From positions 3,113 to 67,112 of IMG/VR virus record IMGVR_UViG_3300031132_000323: a stretch of 64,000 nt of DNA. One strand, given 5' to 3'. Both the position numbers and the translations under genes were made by a program. Position 1 is the first letter of the stretch. Every line of letters starts with the position of its first letter. The notes beneath the pieces were generated by a model. It saw only the letters and a list, made by a program, of their open reading frames with translations. It did no database searches and was not told where the DNA came from. Below are positions 9,501-62,787 of the stretch, piece by piece. The DNA is from a virus.

Positions 9501-11160
9501 CCTCGAGGTCGATCTCTTGCACCTGAAGGTCGCGCTTTTTAGCGACGTAGTCGCTCTCGCTGACCAACTGCTGCTTGTGGTGACTTTCCAGATCCTCCAG
9601 CTGGCCCTTCAGGATTTCGCGCTGCTGGTCTCGCTGGTTTTCGAGTCCCTTTAGCACCGGGTTGTCGAGCGAGGAATATTCCGCGTAGATCTTCGCGACG
9701 CGGTCATTGATCGCCTTGTCAGAGACGCCGGCGGCAATGCCCTGTTCCCGAACCTTCTTTATTTCTTGGTCGCGCTTCTGGATTTTGGTCAGGTACTTGT
9801 CGCCGTCCTTGTCCCACTGGATCAGTGCATCATTGAACTGCTGCGAGATTGCCTTTTGCGCGGCATCCCACTCCTCCTTCGCCTTCTGCAGCACCAGCGC
9901 CGCACGCTTCTGCTCGAGCGCCTCCTTATCAACGGCAGGGGCCGACTGAGCGAAACCCAGGCGGGCCATGCTGGCGATCGGAGCTACCTTTTCCTTGGCG
10001 CGCGCCAGCTGCGCATCGATTTGAGCGATCTGCTCATCGATCGTCTGCGGCCTGCCGATGTTGAGGAACTGGTCCCACGCTTTCCCAGCGGCGTCGCCGA
10101 CTTTGCTCCATGCGGTCTGCACGGTGCCCAGGCTTTCCTTTACCTGCTTCATTCGGTCGGAAAGCGCCGATGCGTAAGTCTTCTGGGCAAGCGAAGCTGC
10201 TTCGTCGGACTGGCCTTGCTTGTCGAGCGCCCTGATCTGCTCGAGGACCGACGCCGTCAGGTAGTGATACTGCTCATTCAACTTGATAGTTGCGTCGACG
10301 GGAGACTTCCCCAGTTCAGCAAATTGCTTCGCCGTGTCTTCCGCGCTCTGGCCAAGCCCTCGCTGCATCTCGATGGCAGACCGGCCAAACTCCAGCAGGT
10401 TTTCGGCGGCGACCTTCCCAGTTCCGGCCAATGCTGCCAGCGCGGCTGCCGCCTGGCCCTGCGTGCCGACGGAGTCACTGATCTGCCTCGCCATTACCTG
10501 CAGTTGCCCGGCCGTCGTGCCGGCCGTGTTGCCCGACAAGATGATCGCCCGGTTGTAGGCTTCCGTTTCTTGAGATGCCTTGTGGAAGGCATAGATCAGG
10601 CCGGCGGCCGCACCAGCCGCCACCGCGAACGGATTGACCAGACCAAGCAACGTCGAGCCAACACCGCGGAGCGTTGCTGGGATGCTCCCGAACGAGTCGC
10701 GCAACTGCGAGCCTTGCTGCATCAAGATCAGCAGCGGCGACTGCCCGCCAGCCAACTGGGATGCTATATCGCCGAGCTGGGCCGGGACCATCCGCATCGC
10801 GTTGGCTACCTGGGCGGAGGATGCGCCGGTTCGCACTTGAGCTTGCTCGATCGCGCGCAGTTGGTTCAGATACGGCGCCAACGTCGCAGGATCGATGCCG
10901 CGCTGACGCGCCAGTGCCTCGTAATATGCCGCGCTTTGCCGGCCGCCCGACTCCATTGCGATTGTCGTGCGTTGGATTGCAGCCACGATGTTGCGCTGAG
11001 CCGACTCAACGTTTCGCGCGGCGCCGCCCGCACCAGCGCCAACCTGAGACACCGCCTGCCCGGCTCTCTGCGCAGCCTGGGTTGCTGTGCGCAGCCCACC
11101 CTCGACGCCACTTGCATCTGCGACGACGCGGATTGTTGCGGTATTGGTAATCTCGCTCAT
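6595..11160 (-). CDS. Tail tape measure protein (lambda gpH-like)
   Basis: 1521 aa Ala-rich helical protein; PAQLGDIASQLAGGQSPLLILMQQGSQLRDSFG motif. Confidence 0.95.
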   Translation of the reverse strand: MSEITNTATIRVVADASGVEGGLRTATQAAQRAGQAVSQVGAGAGGAARNVESAQRNIVAAIQRTTIAMESGGRQSAAYYEALARQRGIDPATLAPYLNQLRAIEQAQVRTGASSAQVANAMRMVPAQLGDIASQLAGGQSPLLILMQQGSQLRDSFGSIPATLRGVGSTLLGLVNPFAVAAGAAAGLIYAFHKASQETEAYNRAIILSGNTAGTTAGQLQVMARQISDSVGTQGQAAAALAALAGTGKVAAENLLEFGRSAIEMQRGLGQSAEDTAKQFAELGKSPVDATIKLNEQYHYLTASVLEQIRALDKQGQSDEAASLAQKTYASALSDRMKQVKESLGTVQTAWSKVGDAAGKAWDQFLNIGRPQTIDEQIAQIDAQLARAKEKVAPIASMARLGFAQSAPAVDKEALEQKRAALVLQKAKEEWDAAQKAISQQFNDALIQWDKDGDKYLTKIQKRDQEIKKVREQGIAAGVSDKAINDRVAKIYAEYSSLDNPVLKGLENQRDQQREILKGQLEDLESHHKQQLVSESDYVAKKRDLQVQEIDLEVNLLRKKAQIDAGKEDKSERDKDLSDLQVAMIKRRNIIQAADNEIAEYNSNKTKAIDNLVEGWDRAIEAQSHAVEQELAMFGQSDQARKVYAAQAQIDLDIRKQIAAQIKINQPLNEQDIATLRKRAEVSKENRAEAENELAALAAANQLRRDNLKFSAEYIADADLRARRLMEIDAEQWQYLINNTAEGSEARKKILEQFDVWMANRQMQPVLDRWKGVIDNLDNNFQEGFRDMLTSGKSAWSSFAKSIGNTLKTALADALYQTFVKRYVVQIVASLAGAISGPAVADTLSGTGVPGAAAGVPGVSSAISAAQTASSLYKAITGGFDSLSTSVADAVQAGLYKTGLSPNIASNGSFATSVGEYASSGAGALAGHYIGNAIAGDYSINHGQAVTNIASVAGAIIGGPIGGAIGGAIGGLINRAFGMGSKEIGDTGISGSITAGGLTASSYAKYHQDGGWFRSDKNGTDSKSLSADALAAISNGLSQIKAVSSSFAASIGADAGSIASYSKQFDIALGKDGKIEEGVTKLLSSVGDELATRLVPNIAQFTKSGETASSTLERLASDFTATTQMAQLLGKTAVEAFGSAGLASAATRERLVDLAGSASNLTSWASSYAQNYLTEQEKLAPVKKAVDEAMSSLGLASVTTRDEFKRVVASLDLTTEAGAKQFTSMMQLADAFAQVHAATETLTRTESDIASERAGLQDQLDQLTMTSTQLLKKQRDALAEANRPLFDMVQTAQKLADTSSSLKTFRDSVRSLSDSLSTGSLSVLTPEQQEAELKGQYEKIRAAAMGGDTTAQGKFSDALTAWLTASQKLNAGDTQYQADFARGQQDAAAAAAWATGQIDTAQAQLNSMNSQTLAMQAVNSSLTTTNKILDAIAQNTSPAPIQSGFVLSNALSILSSAVKLLKENSDKQQQEVAGLRKDQQAQTGEAIASNAEAQQQNAQTIVSGMSLLARVIASNQKVTLE

Positions 11161-11172
11161 TCAGTCGCCCAT

Positions 11173-11226
11173 AAAAAAGACCGCCTCAAGGGCGGCCTGC
11201 AAACAAAAAAGCCAGCTTTCGCTGGC
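11173..11226 (-). terminator. Tandem terminator hairpins ending the moron upstream of the TMP
   Basis: Two hairpins (GGCCAGC/GCTGGC and GGCCGCC/GGCGGTC), each followed by a T-tract on the minus strand. Confidence 0.7.
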
Positions 11227-11235
11227 CTGGTTTTC

Positions 11236-11643
11236 TTATCGCTGTCCCATCCTGACCCACTTCCTGCGGTCACACTCGGGAGGCATATCCTTGTCGCTCT
11301 GTTTTGCCTTTAGCAAGGCCGTAGAACAGTTCAGAGCATCAAGATAGTATGCGCCGTCAGAGAATGTTGTCTTCGGTAAAGGGCATTTATTTGCCGCCAT
11401 CAGAGTGAGGTGCATCTGCATCAAATTGGTTACTACAACCTTCTGTAATTGCCTATTAGTTTCCCTCGCAGCACTGTTGTCTGTAACGCCGTCAACGCGG
11501 ATAAATGTCAGCTCCATTACGCCGTCTTCGACTGCAGCGCCGAGCTGCTCGCAAGTGCCTGACTGGGTCGGCGGCTTATTATCCGCGGCCTGAGCAAACC
11601 CGCAGGCCGCGACCAGCAGCGCTCCAAATATCGCTCGCTTCAT
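11236..11643 (-). CDS. Secreted/periplasmic Cys-containing moron protein
   Basis: RBS AGGAGG, start 11643, signal peptide MKRAIFGALLVAACGFAQA, lower GC. Confidence 0.75.
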   Translation of the reverse strand: MKRAIFGALLVAACGFAQAADNKPPTQSGTCEQLGAAVEDGVMELTFIRVDGVTDNSAARETNRQLQKVVVTNLMQMHLTLMAANKCPLPKTTFSDGAYYLDALNCSTALLKAKQSDKDMPPECDRRKWVRMGQR

Positions 11644-11669
11644 TGCACCCCTCCTGTTGTGATGAGTGC

Positions 11670-11697
11670 AATATAGTACACCAGTGAAAAAGTGCAA
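11670..11697 (-). promoter_or_regulatory. Sigma70 promoter of the moron
   Basis: TTGCAC-16 bp-TATATT on the minus strand just upstream of the RBS. Confidence 0.6.
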
Positions 11698-11700
11698 CAC

Positions 11701-11810
11701 GAAAAGCCCCGTGAGGGGCTTCCCGCTTACTACCCATGCCTCGCCGTGGCCCAGCGGAGCCAGACAAGCCTTGCCGAATCGCATCACACCTTATCCTGCC
11801 GCGAGCCGAA
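11701..11810 (-). ncRNA. Putative small RNA with 14 in-phase G-N-Y-N-N pentamers (guide-RNA-like)
   Basis: 11800->11731 reads GGCag GATaa GGTgt GATgc GATtc GGCaa GGCtt GTCtg GCTcc GCTgg GCCac GGCga GGCat GGGta; AT-rich upstream region, terminator downstream. Confidence 0.6.
11702..11722 (-). terminator. Intrinsic terminator closing the pentamer-array RNA
   Basis: GAAGCCCC-TCAC-GGGGCTTTTC. Confidence 0.75.
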
Positions 11811-11875
11811 CAAAGAATTTACGACAACTAATCCTATCAATTACACGCCGGGATTGCCACCGTTGCAAATTGCGA

Positions 11876-12322
11876 TCAATGGAGTAGCGCCCCGTCTGGC
11901 GGCGCACTCGGGGAATGCCATGGCTTCCCTGCTGCATCCCAAAAATCCTTTATCTCCTCCAGGGTGGGCTCATTATTCTGCTCTGCCCGTTCCCGAGCGG
12001 CCACCATGACCCGAGCCATCAACTCTTCATGCTCGCCGCCCTCCAGGCCGGCCGACTCGCATACATAGGCCAATTTACCAGCCTGCATGTTATGAAACCT
12101 TCCTGCCATCAAAACATGATCTTCGGTCAGTACTCGCAATTGGCGCAACTGCGGGTCTGAGTCTTCTCCATGTTCAAGGATATGAAGCTGTGTGTAGTAA
12201 CCAACCATCAAAGAAAGCAAGGCTTCGTACCACAGCATTAGTGCAGCCAGCTCAACAGCCTCGTTGAACACACTGTCGGCAGCATGCGCTACGACTTGGC
12301 TTGGTTGCGCGGTAGTCGTCAT
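11876..12322 (-). CDS. Hypothetical helical protein, last gene of the antirepressor operon
   Basis: 148-aa ORF coupled to the upstream stop (ATGA overlap). Confidence 0.65.
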   Translation of the reverse strand: MTTTAQPSQVVAHAADSVFNEAVELAALMLWYEALLSLMVGYYTQLHILEHGEDSDPQLRQLRVLTEDHVLMAGRFHNMQAGKLAYVCESAGLEGGEHEELMARVMVAARERAEQNNEPTLEEIKDFWDAAGKPWHSPSAPPDGALLH

Positions 12323-13176
12323 GCCGGCGCCCTTTCCTGGCCGCCCATTCCAAGCAGCTGGCCTTGATTCGAAGGCGCCGGCTCCGCATGCTCGTTGGAG
12401 ATAAGCGCAACCACTGATTCATACCAGTTGATCTGATCGCCGACATGGTGGTTGTCCGCCTGGAATGGGCGCGCTTCGCCGTATTTCGTGCCAGCCTCCG
12501 TAAGAACGTAGCCGTTTTCGACCTTCCTTTGCAATCCAAGCCCGATGAGCGCTTTGTTGACTTTCACCGGCGACATCTTGGGCGTGAGCCGCTTTCCGAT
12601 CTCGGTGGGATTGAGCTTCACCGCCTTTTCGATAGACTCAGCCGGCAGTGCGCCCTGGAATTGCGTTACTGGCAGCCCCGTACGTTCTTCGATCATCCGC
12701 AGCTTGATCACTGCAACCACATCCGGCCGAGCGCCAGGCACCTTGGCGATCATATTCCCGATGAGGTCGATCGCGCGTACGTCAGTCAGTAGACTTGGCG
12801 CGGCGCGGCGAGCCGGCTTGGTAATGACCGGCGGCTGGCTGAAGTAAGATCTCACCAACTGCCGCTGTACGTCCCAGGCCAGGTCGTCGGTGAAGCTCTT
12901 CACCAGCATCGAGTAGCCGGTTTGGGTCAAGAGGATCACATCTTCATGCGCCTTGCTCGATATCGCGCAAATTTTGTGCGTACGAATTTCGTTCGCACTG
13001 ACCCTGCTGAAATCCTCACCCTCAGCCAGCCGATCTTTGTGCTCGTTGAAGTTGCGACGGGCCGTGCCTTCGGGGCGCTTGTGAACCTCATCCATCATGG
13101 CCAGCGTCATCACCCGCTGACCGCGGTATTCGACTGGCGCCAGTTCGACGTCACCAATTACGATAAGGTTGCTCAT
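12319..13176 (-). CDS. Phage antirepressor, ORF6N domain
   Basis: VEYRGQRVMTLAMMDEVH.RPEGTARRNF...LLTQTGYSMLVKSFTDDLAWDVQRQLV signature. Confidence 0.88.
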   Translation of the reverse strand: MSNLIVIGDVELAPVEYRGQRVMTLAMMDEVHKRPEGTARRNFNEHKDRLAEGEDFSRVSANEIRTHKICAISSKAHEDVILLTQTGYSMLVKSFTDDLAWDVQRQLVRSYFSQPPVITKPARRAAPSLLTDVRAIDLIGNMIAKVPGARPDVVAVIKLRMIEERTGLPVTQFQGALPAESIEKAVKLNPTEIGKRLTPKMSPVKVNKALIGLGLQRKVENGYVLTEAGTKYGEARPFQADNHHVGDQINWYESVVALISNEHAEPAPSNQGQLLGMGGQERAPA

Positions 13177-13643: not shown

Positions 13644-13811
13644 TTACGCCGGCACTGCATTTTGCGCAGGCCGCTTCAGACTCTCCTTCAGCCGCTGGAT
13701 GATCTCTCCATGCAGCGTCCTTCCATTTTGATCCGCCTCGCGGCTCAGCTCGCTCCGCATTTCCGGCTCCATCCTTAAGGGATACGGAGCCTTTTGCTTG
13801 TGCCTGTCCAA
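13644..13811 (-). CDS. Arc-family ribbon-helix-helix repressor (55 aa, missing from the ORF track)
   Basis: GGAGG RBS plus TTG start; MDRHKQKAPYPLRMEPEMRSELSREADQNGRTLHGEIIQRLKESL. Confidence 0.85.
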   Translation of the reverse strand: MDRHKQKAPYPLRMEPEMRSELSREADQNGRTLHGEIIQRLKESLKRPAQNAVPA

Positions 13812-13914: not shown

Positions 13915-14241
13915 ATGGAAGATCGTCATCAAATTACACCCTACCCGCTGCGGATGTCAGCCGAGCTCCGCAAGCGCCTTGAAGACGAGGCGCGCGGAGT
14001 TGGCCGCTCCTTAAATGCCGAGATCATCGCGCGCCTTGAGGCGTCTTTCAGCGAAGAGGCCGGCCTGAGCGACGTCGACAAGAAGTTTTTGCTCCTACTA
14101 GTCAAGGAGCTGAAGGCGAAGAATCAGATGGATCTCTTCCCTGGCGAGGGCGGCGAAGCGGCGCAACAAGATCCTACTGCCGAGGTCCCAAAGCCCCGCC
14201 GCATCGTGCGCCCCGCATCAAAGAAGGCCACAGAGAAGTAG
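13915..14241 (+). CDS. Arc/Mnt-family DNA-binding protein
   Basis: PYPLRMSAELRKRLEDEARGVGRSLNAEIIARLEASF. Confidence 0.9.
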   Translation: MEDRHQITPYPLRMSAELRKRLEDEARGVGRSLNAEIIARLEASFSEEAGLSDVDKKFLLLLVKELKAKNQMDLFPGEGGEAAQQDPTAEVPKPRRIVRPASKKATEK

Positions 14242-59252: not shown

Positions 59253-59299
59253 TGGCCTGCCCAGCTGGGTTCGAACCAGCGACCCTCAGCTTAGAAGGC
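59253..59299 (-). tRNA. 3' half of tRNA-Arg(UCU) forming the att core; 5' half absent here
   Basis: Minus strand GCCTTCTAAGCTGAGGGTCGCTGGTTCGAACCCAGCTGGGCAGGCCA: anticodon TCT, T-loop GTTCGAA, CCA end; no D-arm upstream. Confidence 0.88.
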
Positions 59300-59388
59300 C
59301 GCACCCCATTCAAAGAAACCGCGCTAAAATAAGGGCTCCCGGCTTTTCGCCGCGATCTCTGTCCAAATTTTGTCCAAGTGAGGAAGGC

Positions 59389-60612: not shown

Positions 60613-62787
60613 TCACTGTTCGCCCTTCCCCCTCTTCTCTTGCATCGCTTGGCCGGCGTCGGCTCGCGGATTGCCTTCGCCCTTAGTGCGCTCGCGGCGG
60701 GCGTCAAGCGCGGCTTTCGCGCCGACCGCGCCAAGCCCTTTGGACACCGCGCCGCCGGCCGATTGGCCCACGCCCTGCGCGCCGCCTTGGCCGGTCTTCG
60801 AGAGGGCTTGCGCGCTCTCTCCAAGCTGCTCGTGTCCGCCGCCAACCCAGCGCATCAGCTTGTCCGGGATCACGGTGATAAAGCCAAACACGAAGTGGAA
60901 CAGAAACAGCATCGCGCCGAAGTAAATGCCGACCATCGTGATTAGAGTTCCAAGCCCGACGACGCTGCCCGCCATCGCCATCTTGAACGCGGGAAAAAAG
61001 ATGCCGTTGAAGCCTTGGACAAGCAAATCAAGCGCGCCCATCGAGCAGACGAAGCCCAGCACGATCAGCACCGGGCGCAGCAGCACGCCGAGCAAGAGCG
61101 CGTAGCCTTGACGCGCGCCGCCCGCGATGCCGTCGCCTTCGGGCGTCAAGTGCATGATGGCCCAAACGGGGGCGGCAATGACGGCTTCGAGACAGAGCAG
61201 CAGCCAGCCAGCGAAGGCGCCGAAGTAAATCAAGAACGGCGCCATCGGCAGATAAACCGCGATGCCGGCGGCAAAGAAAAAGAGCGCGAAGCAAGCGAAA
61301 ATCAGCATGTAGCCAACCGCCTGCATCGCGCCGGATGCCGCTCCCGCAAGCGCCTTGGACGCGCCAAAACTCATGACATTCGCCGCCTCGCCGAGCAAGC
61401 TGTTGTTTTCTGAATCGACCGCCTTGGCCGCGCTCGTCATCAGCACGCCCGCGCCCATGCCGGCCTCGGCGCCGGTCATCAAGTAGTCGCCGAAGTCTTT
61501 CACGCTCATAAGCGCGCTGCGATTCTTGTCCACCTGAATCGCGCCGGCGATCCCGCCAAAAACTGAACTCATCACTTCCCGCGCGCCTTGCGTGAGCGGG
61601 CTGGAAGTGTTGCCGAGGTCGCTTGACGCGCTCGCGGTTGCGCTCAATGCGCCGCCGGGATTCGTCGCAAGCGTGTCGAGACGCGCGAAGTAAATCCCCA
61701 TACCAGGCGGGAGGCGGCTGGCGGTCGGACGGGTCGCCGCTGGGGTGTGCGCGATGGCGCCGTTAAGCGCGTCTTGCATTTGGGCAAGTTTTGAGTAATA
61801 CGCCCCGGCGAACATCCAGCCGTCTTTGCCCGCGCTTTGGACGAAGCTGTCGAGCGCTTGCGAGTTGTTGTAGACGCTCGCCGCCGCTTGGCTGACGCTC
61901 TTTTGATACGCTTCGACCGCCGCGCCGACATCGGCGGCGACATCGGGCGCCGCGCCGTCGTGGATGCTTTTCGCCACGCCCTGGGCGGTCTTCGCCATGG
62001 ACGCTTCAAGCGCCGCGAAGGCTTGCCGGTGCGCCGCGTCGATGCTGTCCAGCGCGCTCGCGTCGTATTCGATGCCCGCCCAGCCGGCGATTTTCGAGCC
62101 CGCGCCGCGCGATTGAAAGCGCACCGCGCCGCACTCCGTCCCGCCGTTCACGCCGTAAGCGCGCACGCCCTCGGCCGGCGTCGCCGCCGCCATGGGATCG
62201 GCCATGATGTTGCTTGCCGCGCCTTCGCCGCGCAGGTCGTTGAAGGCCGCCATGCACACTTGCGAAGCAAGCACCGCATTGGCAAGCTCGGAGACATTGG
62301 GAAGCCGCGCGCGCGGCGCCATCCCTTGCGGGGTGGTGAACGCTCCAAGCCATGCGTTGAAGGTTTGATCGGCCAGCCCCACGCCCTGCCCGATCAAGAA
62401 TCCGACGAGCATTTGCGCGACGCAGTAGCCGCCGGACATCGGGACCACCAAGCCAATGCCGAGGACCGTGCGGATGGGGAGCCACATGGACGACCAACGC
62501 TTGCCCAGCGCTTCGCCGTCGTGCGCGGTCTGCATGATGCCGGCGATGAGGCTGTAAGCCAAGAAGATGCCGCCGACGGTCAGCGCGCCGCCGTTGAGGA
62601 TACCAAGCGCCTTTTCAAGCGCGCCCGCGCCGCCTCCGCACTCGGAGAAGAGTGAGCCGAAAAGCGGCGCGAGATAGTCGCTCATTGATCGATCAGAGCA
62701 AGAAACCTCAAAGAAATTAGGGGCGGCGTTTGCGCTCGCGCTAGCGAGAGCGGTCAAGAGCCCGGCGAAGAGTTTGGCGCGCATCAT
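60613..62787 (-). CDS. traY: DotA/TraY family type IVB conjugation membrane protein
   Basis: D.S..YL..LFG, TAHDGEALGKRWSSMWLPIRTV.G, GY..AQ, G.GLAD, GWMFAGAYY, YLPMAPF, LLRPVL..GF motifs. Confidence 0.9.
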   Translation of the reverse strand: MMRAKLFAGLLTALASASANAAPNFFEVSCSDRSMSDYLAPLFGSLFSECGGGAGALEKALGILNGGALTVGGIFLAYSLIAGIMQTAHDGEALGKRWSSMWLPIRTVLGIGLVVPMSGGYCVAQMLVGFLIGQGVGLADQTFNAWLGAFTTPQGMAPRARLPNVSELANAVLASQVCMAAFNDLRGEGAASNIMADPMAAATPAEGVRAYGVNGGTECGAVRFQSRGAGSKIAGWAGIEYDASALDSIDAAHRQAFAALEASMAKTAQGVAKSIHDGAAPDVAADVGAAVEAYQKSVSQAAASVYNNSQALDSFVQSAGKDGWMFAGAYYSKLAQMQDALNGAIAHTPAATRPTASRLPPGMGIYFARLDTLATNPGGALSATASASSDLGNTSSPLTQGAREVMSSVFGGIAGAIQVDKNRSALMSVKDFGDYLMTGAEAGMGAGVLMTSAAKAVDSENNSLLGEAANVMSFGASKALAGAASGAMQAVGYMLIFACFALFFFAAGIAVYLPMAPFLIYFGAFAGWLLLCLEAVIAAPVWAIMHLTPEGDGIAGGARQGYALLLGVLLRPVLIVLGFVCSMGALDLLVQGFNGIFFPAFKMAMAGSVVGLGTLITMVGIYFGAMLFLFHFVFGFITVIPDKLMRWVGGGHEQLGESAQALSKTGQGGAQGVGQSAGGAVSKGLGAVGAKAALDARRERTKGEGNPRADAGQAMQEKRGKGEQ

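What the first reader, a model, noticed from the sequence alone, without database searches (positions are those of the whole stretch)
11701..11880. Stand-alone small RNA made of 14 in-phase G-N-Y-N-N pentamers: a candidate non-contiguous guide RNA
Seen: minus strand 11800->11731 parses with no indel into GGC-ag GAT-aa GGT-gt GAT-gc GAT-tc GGC-aa GGC-tt GTC-tg GCT-cc GCT-gg GCC-ac GGC-ga GGC-at GGG-ta. Position 1 is G in 14/14 units and position 3 is a pyrimidine in 13/14, while the last two bases give 13 different dinucleotides. An intrinsic terminator follows (11702-11722), and AT-rich promoter-like DNA precedes it (TTGCAA-17-TGTAAT; TAAATT). A 5-nt period cannot come from codon bias, and variable NN argues against a slipped microsatellite. 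Inference: fixed triplets bind a repeating protein subunit and the dinucleotides spell a target, AG-AA-GT-GC-TC-AA-TT-TG-CC-GG-AC-GA-AT-TA, read contiguously or with 1-nt gaps. From memory this resembles recently reported phage GGY/NN guide RNAs with RAMP/Cas7-like partners (VIPR); that link needs verification. No RAMP-like ORF is visible in the window, so this may be an orphan guide or decoy using a partner in trans.
Basis: partly seen in the sequence, partly recalled or inferred. Interest (0 to 1): 0.9.

Follow-up and report, generated by a model that had tools for sequence, protein, structure and literature searches.

The report
Solo VIPR guide RNA aimed at vipr
This short five-base repeat is very probably a stand-alone guide-RNA gene of the recently described phage VIPR silencing system, carried by a prophage that lacks the VIPR protein, and its code spells a conserved part of the VIPR protein gene of sister phages, so it looks like a weapon that turns a rival's own machinery against it.

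Summary
Minus strand 11800->11731 is 14 in-phase G-N-Y-N-N pentamers, unique in the 67-kb provirus and beyond 200 simulations.

VIPR is real and in print (four 2026 preprints). The array ends in a 3' tail, GGCAT-GGGTA-GTAA plus a GC hairpin. Sister phages carry the same tail on the last guide RNA of complete vipr-vap1-vrRNA loci, in the same genome slot between the tail-chaperone genes and the tape measure.

This provirus (CheckV 100%) has no Vipr by three searches, so the RNA is a solo vrRNA.

Read by the published 1-nt-skip rule, guide units 1-11 match 22 of 22 informative positions. The site lies inside the vipr gene of 10 distinct viral records, on codons (V/I)PGQNFDATFL, with the skipped bases on codon third positions. 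Only the NN register with skip 1 gives this match. The 19 other register/skip combinations score 15-19, and 300 shuffled guides reach at most 18.

Expression, Vipr loading and silencing are untested.

Solo vrRNAs that target vipr are already described for SUSP1-family phages, and this scan has noted solo vrRNAs on other DNA before. This is therefore a new member of a known kind.

The parts
11746..11800 (-). Guide region of the solo vrRNA: units 1-11. The NN dinucleotides are AG AA GT GC TC AA TT TG CC GG AC.
   Evidence: Sequence. Under the 1-nt-skip rule it matches 22 of 22 informative positions inside vipr in 10 distinct records.
11731..11745 (-). Tail-proximal units 12-14 (GGCGA GGCAT GGGTA). 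GGCAT-GGGTA is constant among vrRNAs of this tail class and is probably scaffold rather than guide.
   Evidence: Shared with L013, L146, L012, L016 and L018, and as GACAT/GGTAT-GGGTA with L055 and L064. Only 2 of 6 informative positions match the vipr site.
11699..11730 (-). 3' tail: GTAA plus a 12-bp GC-rich hairpin (11726-11699) with the U-run in its 3' arm. It probably also serves as the operon terminator.
   Evidence: Fold. It is homologous to the tail of the terminal vrRNA of vipr+ sister loci L077/L055 (blastn 80% over 90 nt, E 1e-13) and L079/L064. It matches L013 at 84.9% over 86 nt, E 3e-18. It is identical in L146.
11801..11822 (-). 5' leader that is kept together with the array in a diverged relative. 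The true 5' end is unknown.
   Evidence: In run X3 one DNA contig covers 11639-11822 and then departs, with 189 other letters in place of 11823-12028.
11840..11868 (-). Promoter-like hexamers TTGCAA-17-TGTAAT. Unverified.
   Evidence: Present in the sequence. Not called by the consensus scan. Not kept in the X3 relative.
11650..11698 (-). Conserved spacer after the tail, running into the ribosome-binding site of the next gene.
   Evidence: Included in the blastn matches to L077 (window 11650-11738) and L013 (11656-11740).
11876..12322 (-). 148-aa all-helical protein gene directly upstream of the array, standing where sister phages have vipr-vap1. It is not a RAMP.
   Evidence: No Pfam or PHROG hit. 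The family has 8 members. The AlphaFold model has five helices and no strands, pLDDT 73. No PDB match at E<=0.001. No similarity to the L079 Vap.
12319..13176 (-). ORF6N-domain antirepressor gene of the same operon.
   Evidence: Pfam PF10543, E 5e-15. PHROG anti-repressor families, best E 1e-38.
13644..13811 (-). Arc-like repressor gene at the head of the leftward operon.
   Evidence: Pfam Arc PF03869, E 9e-9.
13915..14241 (+). Divergent second Arc-like (Mnt-like) regulator gene.
   Evidence: Pfam Arc PF03869, E 5e-9.
11236..11643 (-). Downstream signal-peptide/lipobox protein gene (moron). Not part of the RNA.
   Evidence: ORF with an AGGAGG site upstream. No family hit.

Best explanation
The element is a solo (orphan) vrRNA gene of a type II-like VIPR system.

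Inferred model: it is transcribed leftward, either from its own weak promoter or as the 3' end of the Arc-controlled antirepressor operon, and ends at the tail hairpin. The RNA would be about 100-130 nt. It has a short leader, 11 guide units of the form G-(G/N)-Y + NN, two or three constant tail-proximal units, and a hairpin tail.

The provirus has no vipr gene, so the RNA can only act with Vipr protein made by another element in the same cell. The likely source is a sister phage or prophage that carries vipr-vap1-vrRNAs in the same genome slot and uses the same tail. By the published mechanism, Vipr protomers would polymerise on the G-N-Y triplets and present the NN pairs.

Read with one skipped base per unit, the NN pairs are complementary to the sense strand of vipr at codons (V/I)PGQNFDATFL. 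This is the RRM helix-1 region that forms the pyrimidine pocket. The skipped bases fall on codon third positions, so synonymous drift does not break the match.

The predicted outcome is that the rival's own Vipr, loaded with this guide, sits on the rival's vipr gene. That would block transcription of vipr and of the downstream vap1 and vrRNAs, disarming the rival's VIPR.

Shown here: the repeat, the tail homology, the absence of Vipr in this provirus, and the gapped match with its controls. Inferred: transcription, loading by a foreign Vipr, silencing, and the benefit to this phage.
For: (1) Repeat statistics are given.

(2) The tail GGCAT-GGGTA-GTA plus hairpin is shared with terminal vrRNAs that lie next to vipr in L012, L016, L077/L055 and L079/L064.

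(3) L077 and L079 are sister phages. They have the same order: tail-chaperone genes, Arc, Arc, antirepressor, vipr, vap1, vrRNAs, tail, tape measure.

(4) Relatives with the same tail carry different NN (L013, L146). L011 has the 148-aa gene without an array.

(5) No Vipr is found in the complete provirus. An HMM of 119 Viprs gave best E 3.2. Profile A1 gave 0 matches, while the positive control G004 scored 1.8e-87. Pfam RAMPs PF03787 gave 0. SUSP1 Vipr and Vap1 gave 0.

(6) A seed of units 1-8 scanned over IMG/VR gave 31 loci. Thirteen of these (12 distinct records) extend the match, and all 13 sites lie inside Vipr ORFs on the antisense strand. Ten records score 22/22 and two score 21/22.

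(7) L012 and L016 had been fetched earlier by the tail motif alone. On them the guide scores 24/28 with skip 1 and 17, 16 and 17 with skips 0, 2 and 3. Two thousand shuffled guides averaged 16.9 with a maximum of 21.

(8) In 73 vipr loci fetched by protein seeds that did not include the target motif, the best site in the locus is this same vipr site in 72 of 73. Scores are 22/22 in 9, 21 in 2, 20 in 21, 19 in 34 and 18 or less in 7.

(9) In the register control, only pentamer offset 3 with skip 1 gives 22. The other 19 combinations give 15-19, the reversed guide gives 16, and 300 shuffles reach at most 18.

(10) Nine of 11 skip columns vary among the 12 target records, and 21 of 22 informative columns do not. 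Units 1-8 were fixed by the seed for 10 of these 12.

(11) The site aligns with SUSP1 residues 69-77. These include E71 and M72 of the Y3 pocket named in passages of 10.64898/2026.04.26.720927.

(12) The provirus has no self-target: best 17/28, equal to the null mean.

(13) A DNA contig of run X3 carries the array in a diverged relative. Between 11790 and 11699 the only listed difference is a T-to-C change at the Y position of unit 3. The neighbouring 148-aa gene piece has 43 differences in 240 nt.
Against: No RNA data: no RNA run is listed for this stretch, so transcription and the RNA ends are unknown.

The promoter-like hexamers are not called by the scan and are not conserved in the X3 relative.

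The scaffold is degenerate. Only 6 of the 13 units before GGGTA are GGY. The median GGY fraction in 133 arrays lying next to vipr (cis arrays) is 0.67, and only 12 of 133 are as low as this one.

Units 12-14, next to the tail, match the target at only 2 of 6 positions. Passages of the cryo-EM preprint say the subunits near the 3' end resolve first. If a 3' seed is needed, this guide may bind poorly.

Only 9 of 73 sampled vipr alleles are perfect matches.

No Vipr source in the host cell is known. Only the 67-kb provirus record was available, and the tool that could fetch more of its 112.7-kb contig was closed.

The three sibling solo guides (L013 A and B, L018) and the truncated L146 guide found no target above their nulls in the DNA I held.
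Confidence: 0.8

Rival explanations
1. Vipr sponge or competitor. The RNA works mainly by soaking up a rival's Vipr protein through its scaffold and tail. It would dilute the rival's own guides, and the target match would add little.
For: The tail is shared with vipr+ sister loci. The second preprint considered competition for complex formation as one possibility for satellite solo vrRNAs (section 7 read).
Against: In that preprint a solo vrRNA with the consensus tail but no target did not relieve VIPR (section 7). Here 22 of 22 guide positions match vipr, and the match is specific for register and skip. Sponging alone does not explain that. The two modes are not exclusive.
Confidence: 0.1
2. 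Inactive relic. The array is the last vrRNA left after the vipr-vap1 cassette was replaced, and it no longer does anything.
For: Sister phages hold a complete VIPR locus in the same slot. L144 keeps only the tail, with an ORF running into it. The scaffold is at the degenerate end of the range. There is no expression evidence.
Against: In the ancestor a relic guide would have had to spare its own vipr, yet this guide is a perfect match to vipr alleles of the closest sister loci (L077 and L079 both 22/22). None of 142 cis arrays scores above 0.77 on its own vipr. In the X3 relative the array and tail are nearly unchanged while the flanks have diverged.
Confidence: 0.07
3. Not a guide RNA: a chance periodic tract, or an ordinary 3'-UTR and terminator region of the antirepressor operon.
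For: It lies at the 3' end of an operon directly before a hairpin. No Rfam family matches it.
Against: The run length is beyond all 200 simulations. The tail is homologous to bona fide vrRNA tails. The gapped match to vipr has a chance expectation of about 2e-9 for 22/22 in the 19 kb of L012+L016. That figure is my arithmetic (38,000 positions times 4^-22); the empirical nulls are.
Confidence: 0.03

Closest known systems
Solo vrRNAs of VIPR-null SUSP1-family phages that target vipr (bioRxiv 10.64898/2026.10.15.759431; abstract and sections 7, 8 and 17 read)
   Same: The phage lacks vipr and vap1 but keeps 1-2 vrRNAs where relatives have the full locus. The tail is shared with vipr+ relatives. 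The guide is predicted to hit the relatives' vipr gene. The phage does not target itself.
   Different: The host and phage lineage differ. This is a GC-rich temperate provirus with tape-measure and tail-chaperone genes, probably of an Oxalobacteraceae host, not a lytic Enterobacteriaceae phage. The cassette was replaced (antirepressor plus 148-aa gene) rather than lost by the clean 1,114-bp deletion reported there. The tail is a hairpin-terminator type rather than the SUSP1 pseudoknot type. The repeat unit is G-N-Y rather than strict GGY. [quoted passage not shown]
Canonical type II VIPR loci (SUSP1; Pseudomonas fulva prophage clade), bioRxiv 10.64898/2026.04.26.720920 (Results and Methods sections 18 and 20 read)
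   Same: 5-nt repeat with fixed triplet and variable NN. The unit number (13-14) is within 9-16. An invariable 3' tail follows. The 1-nt-skip code applies, with the skipped base on the codon wobble position. Some vrRNAs of the P. fulva clade are said to target other VIPR systems.
   Different: There is no vipr or vap in cis here. The sister-locus Viprs are about 36-46% identical to SUSP1 Vipr. They carry EY instead of DW before RPRFG in 64 of 73 loci. I could not tell whether the P. fulva clade of the paper is the same as the L012/L016 group, because its sequences are in supplements that were closed.
Solo vrRNAs of F5 satellites (same second preprint)
   Same: Stand-alone vrRNA with the helper's tail, acting through a Vipr protein made by another element.
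   Different: Those guides redirect Vipr to host REP elements as decoys. This guide matches the vipr gene itself. I had no host genome in which to test for decoy sites.
Phage-borne CRISPR mini-arrays and RNA anti-CRISPRs
   Same: A mobile element carries only the RNA part of an RNA-guided system and exploits or blocks a protein made elsewhere.
   Different: Different protein family, repeat architecture and recognition code.

Membership tests
VIPR vrRNA | Tandem 5-nt units of a fixed GGY (or related) triplet plus variable NN, 9-16 units | tested here: met
   There are 14 in-phase units: G1 14/14, Y3 13/14, and G2 in 8/14. The discovery paper allows internal degeneracy and related consensus forms (section 20). 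In 133 cis arrays of the sister clade G1 is 96.5%, G2 73% and Y3 98%. G-N-Y is therefore that clade's normal unit, though this array is in the lowest 12 of 133 for GGY fraction.
VIPR vrRNA | Invariable 3' tail shared with other vrRNAs of the clade | tested here: met
   GGCAT-GGGTA-GTA plus hairpin is shared with terminal vrRNAs next to vipr in L012, L016, L077 and L079. Blastn to L077 gives 80% over 90 nt, E 1e-13. The tail is identical in L146.
VIPR vrRNA | NN hypervariable among RNAs that share scaffold and tail | tested here: met
   L013-B and L146 have the same tail but unrelated NN strings.
VIPR vrRNA | NN string matches a natural DNA target with one skipped base per unit | tested here: met
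   22/22 in vipr of 10 records. The match is specific for skip and register, and shuffled guides reach at most 18/22 and 21/28.
VIPR vrRNA | Expressed as a roughly 100-nt RNA that co-purifies with Vipr | not testable with these tools
   No RNA run is listed for the stretch.
Complete VIPR system (vipr + vap + vrRNA in one locus) | A vipr (RAMP) gene beside the vrRNA | tested here: not met
   0 matches in the 67,112-bp provirus (CheckV 100%) with SUSP1 Vipr, a 119-sequence HMM, profile A1 and Pfam PF03787. The neighbouring 148-aa protein is all-helical.
Solo (orphan) vrRNA of a VIPR-null element | vrRNA with the clade tail on an element that lacks vipr and vap, while relatives carry the full locus at the same place | tested here: met
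   Vap1 of SUSP1 also finds nothing in G000.

The most novel reading that the evidence does not exclude
The antirepressor operon and the solo guide may form one 'wake and disarm' cassette. On infection or induction, the Arc-controlled operon would express an antirepressor that switches on a resident sister prophage. At the same time it would express a guide that makes that prophage's own Vipr shut down its vipr-vap1-vrRNA operon.

The cassette is flanked by sequence shared with vipr+ sisters: the Arc region on one side, and the tail plus tape-measure region on the other. Recombination could therefore swap it in for the VIPR cassette it silences. The guide would then behave like a selfish replacement element for this genome slot.
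Probability: 0.15. Interest if true: 0.7.

Novelty: new member of a known kind. Interest (0 to 1): 0.5.

Why it matters
It extends solo, vipr-targeting guide RNAs from lytic Enterobacteriaceae phages to a temperate, GC-rich phage group of a different host lineage. It does so with an unusually clean computational case: same slot, same tail, and a perfect gapped match to the sisters' vipr.

The guide sits on codons of the RNA-binding helix of Vipr, with the skipped bases on wobble positions. That shows how the 2+1 code can give one guide reach over many alleles.

The clade also gives a natural test set for how much degeneracy at the second G the protein tolerates: G-N-Y units, with EY in place of DW in the G-loop.

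It is not a new principle. The kind of element and the idea of anti-VIPR guides are already in print.

Tried and rejected
Rfam at E up to 10 over 11000-12600 found nothing on the array.

Searches that returned nothing useful:
- blastn against the 50,697 GenBank phages found no match.
- An exact 20-nt tail scan of IMG/VR gave 0 hits.
- A looser tail pattern over the GTDB genomes gave 7 hits, all chance matches inside coding sequence.
- The seed of units 5-12 gave 2 loci, which score 18/28 overall, that is, little beyond the 16 positions the seed fixed.
- Eighteen of the 31 seed-1-8 loci did not extend beyond the seed and have no Vipr. Eleven of these are one low-GC family.

Guide readings that failed:
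- Ungapped, 2-nt and 3-nt skip readings gave null scores, apart from the array matching itself at skip 3.
- There is no self-target in the provirus.
- Targets for the sibling guides L013-A, L013-B, L018 and L146 were not above their nulls in about 1 Mb of held loci.

A mixed alignment of two tail classes gave no useful consensus fold.

For the 148-aa protein there was no Pfam or PHROG hit, no PDB fold match at E<=0.001, and no similarity to Vap.

No RNA holder is listed for the stretch. The DNA contigs leave parts of the stretch uncovered, which shows nothing.

ARAGORN finds no tRNA in the window.

Supplements of the preprints were closed. Data S3, fig. S15 and fig. S17 of the first preprint, and the supplementary tables of the second, may already list this clade or such solo guides.

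The literature basis is two full-text searches, which found four relevant preprints.
Full report
THE OBSERVATION. On the minus strand, 11800->11731 parses without indel into 14 pentamers. G is first in 14 of 14, a pyrimidine is third in 13 of 14, and there are 13 different final dinucleotides. The strict run of 13 units is unique in the 67,112-bp record that holds the window; the next longest is 6. It exceeds all 200 first-order Markov simulations, which averaged 6.05 with a maximum of 9. A 12-bp hairpin (11726-11699) follows. Two promoter-like hexamers stand 32-60 nt upstream, but the consensus scan does not call them. No Rfam family matches. The tract lies between a 148-aa gene and a signal-peptide gene and is not coding. 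A long GTG-started ORF runs across it, but the downstream gene has its own ATG and AGGAGG site at 11643-11655.

WHAT IS KNOWN. Two full-text searches found four relevant 2026 preprints. The discovery paper (10.64898/2026.04.26.720920; Results and two Methods sections read) describes VIPR. Its parts are a minimal RAMP protein (Vipr), an accessory Vap, and vrRNAs of 9-16 YNNGG repeats followed by an invariable 3' tail. The NN pairs read double-stranded DNA with one skipped base between them, and the skipped base usually falls on the codon wobble position. The second paper (10.64898/2026.10.15.759431; sections 7, 8 and 17 read) describes solo vrRNAs on satellites and on 346 VIPR-null Enterobacteriaceae phages, some predicted to target vipr. 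Passages of the cryo-EM paper name the residues that hold G1, G2 and Y3.

REFERENCE LOCUS. From the SUSP1 record I located its VIPR locus by a GGY pattern. Vipr is 195 aa, Vap1 is 146 aa, and there are four vrRNAs. Two SUSP1 vrRNAs end GGTAT-GGGTA-GT. The window's array ends GGCAT-GGGTA-GT.

TAIL AND SISTER LOCI. A scan of IMG/VR for (GGYNN)x2-GGYATGGGTAGT gave 19 stretches: SUSP1-like phages plus six GC-rich or mid-GC contigs.
- L012 and L016 carry Vipr (HMM E about 1e-81) followed by three vrRNAs. The last one ends GGCAT-GGGTA-GTA plus a terminator hairpin.
- L013 has the window's own tail nearly base for base but a different NN string. It also has a second array upstream.
- L013 lies in the same place as the window's array, between the tape-measure gene and the tail-chaperone genes.

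Seventy-three vipr loci were then fetched with the L012 Vipr protein. Among them, L077 and L079 proved to be sister phages of the window. Their order is tail-assembly chaperone, DUF1799, Arc (opposite strand), Arc, Bro-N antirepressor, vipr, a Vap1 homologue (E 2e-16 to SUSP1 Vap1), two or three vrRNAs, the same tail, and then the tape measure. The window has the same frame, but with an ORF6N antirepressor and a 148-aa helical protein where the sisters have Bro-N, vipr and vap1. Homology to the sisters resumes at about 11743, that is, at the last units and the tail.

Other states of the slot exist. L144 keeps only the tail, L011 has the 148-aa gene and no array, and L146 has the identical tail with another guide.

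NO VIPR IN CIS. The record is an IMG/VR provirus rated 100% complete. SUSP1 Vipr and Vap1, an HMM of 119 Viprs (best E 3.2), a 28-row profile that scores 1.8e-87 on a positive control, and Pfam RAMPs all find nothing. The RNA is therefore a solo vrRNA. L018's record, also rated complete, is another VIPR-null carrier.

THE TARGET. I scanned IMG/VR with units 1-8 written by the 1-nt-skip rule. This gave 31 loci. Two of them were L012 and L016, which I already held for an unrelated reason, and in both the hit lay inside vipr. Full scoring gave 24/28 in ten loci (nine records) and 23/28 in three. Units 1-11 are perfect in ten records. All thirteen sites are inside Vipr ORFs on the antisense strand. 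The coding strand reads G-[VF]-[YFH]-[VI]-P-G-Q-N-F-D-A-T-F-(L). Every skipped base is a codon third position, and 9 of 11 skip columns vary among the records. The site aligns with SUSP1 residues 69-77, which include E71 and M72 of the pyrimidine pocket.

CONTROLS.
- On L012+L016 alone, skip 1 gives 24/28 and skips 0, 2 and 3 give 17, 16 and 17. Two thousand shuffled guides average 16.9 with a maximum of 21.
- In the 73 loci chosen by protein seeds unrelated to the site, the best-scoring place is this vipr site in 72 of 73. Scores are 22/22 in 9, 21 in 2, 20 in 21, 19 in 34 and lower in 7. The common mismatches correspond to alanine in place of glutamine and to another last codon.
- Taking dinucleotides at the other four pentamer offsets, or using other skips, gives 15-19 of 22. 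The reversed guide gives 16, and 300 shuffles reach at most 18.
- The provirus itself has no site above the null.
- Among 142 cis arrays of the 73 loci, three match a non-self vipr at 0.82-0.95 at another site, and none exceeds 0.77 on its own vipr.

CONSERVATION. One DNA contig of run X3 carries the array in a diverged relative. From unit 3 to the end of the hairpin the only listed change is T to C at a Y position. The piece over the 148-aa gene differs at 43 of 240 positions, and 11823-12028 is replaced. Differences closer than about 35 nt to the piece ends are not listed, so units 1-2 are not assessed.

HOW IT MOST LIKELY WORKS. By the published mechanism, Vipr protomers bind one unit each, flip out the triplet and present NN. 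Here the only possible Vipr is foreign. The sisters use the same tail and sit in the same slot, and their vipr genes are perfect targets. The simplest reading is that the RNA captures a sister's Vipr and parks it on the sister's vipr gene, shutting off vipr, vap1 and the downstream guides. That it is made as part of the Arc-controlled antirepressor operon, and so mainly on infection or induction, is inference from gene order alone.

CAVEATS.
- There is no expression data.
- The scaffold is only 6/13 GGY, within but near the bottom of the clade's range.
- The three tail-proximal units do not pair with the target.
- No Vipr source in the host is known, and the rest of the host contig could not be fetched.
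- Host assignment to Oxalobacteraceae rests only on the names of the nearest named homologues (Massilia, Duganella, Janthinobacterium).

NOVELTY. The kind of element is in print, including vipr-targeting solo guides, and this scan has noted solo vrRNAs on at least 19 other genomes. No look-alike of this sequence was on record in the scan. New here are the phage lineage, the slot and operon context, the hairpin-type tail, the G-N-Y unit, and the particular target. I file it as a new member of a known kind.

Noticed in passing
L071-L143 (73 vipr loci), Vipr C-terminus: In this GC-rich Vipr clade the two residues before RPRFG are EY in 64 of 73 loci (EF in 4). SUSP1 has DW there (D177 contacts G1 and W178 stacks on G2, per the cryo-EM preprint). 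The same clade has G at repeat position 2 in only 73% of 1,762 units. A link between the W-to-Y change and relaxed G2 reading is my speculation.
   Followed up: partly
L144 4193-4248 (-): A 96%-complete provirus without Vipr keeps only the vrRNA tail (ATGGGTAGTAAG plus hairpin). An ORF ends in the GGGTAG of the tail and there is no repeat array. This looks like a further decay state of the same slot.
   Followed up: partly
L013 11966-12190 (-): The sibling phage fragment carries two tandem solo vrRNAs beside a HigB/HigA-like pair in the same slot. One has a GGGCT-GACAACAGC tail like the internal vrRNAs of L077/L079, and one has the window's tail. No target was found for either. The HigB/HigA naming is from reading the ORFs and was not scanned.
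   Followed up: partly
L018 835-951 (+): A 60-kb provirus rated 100% complete carries a solo vrRNA with the L012-type tail and no Vipr. No target was found.
   Followed up: partly
L097 3588, L129 3575, L132 3567 (+): Three cis vrRNAs of vipr+ loci match another locus's vipr at 0.95, 0.86 and 0.82 identity, against 0.77, 0.61 and 0.61 on their own vipr. The sites differ from the one the window's guide reads.
   Followed up: no
window 11876-12322 (-): The 148-aa five-helix protein stands where sisters have vipr-vap1. It belongs to a family of only 8 proteins in 5.8 billion clusters (one from a Massilia genome) and has no Pfam, PHROG or PDB match. Its function is unknown.
   Followed up: partly
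window 11202-11317 (-): There is a weak sub-threshold match to the RsmZ/PrrB sRNA model (20.3 bits against a gathering score of 44, E 0.044). It ends at a clear terminator hairpin at 11228-11209, between the signal-peptide gene and the tape-measure gene.
   Followed up: no
window ~59290-59320 (-): A tRNA T-arm-like stretch (GGTTCGAACC) lies near the integrase end of the prophage, but ARAGORN calls no tRNA in the window. It is perhaps the att-site fragment of a tRNA gene.
   Followed up: no
window 60613-62787 (-): The gene beyond the prophage end is a DotA/TraY-type conjugal-transfer protein. The prophage therefore may sit in or beside an integrative conjugative element.
   Followed up: no
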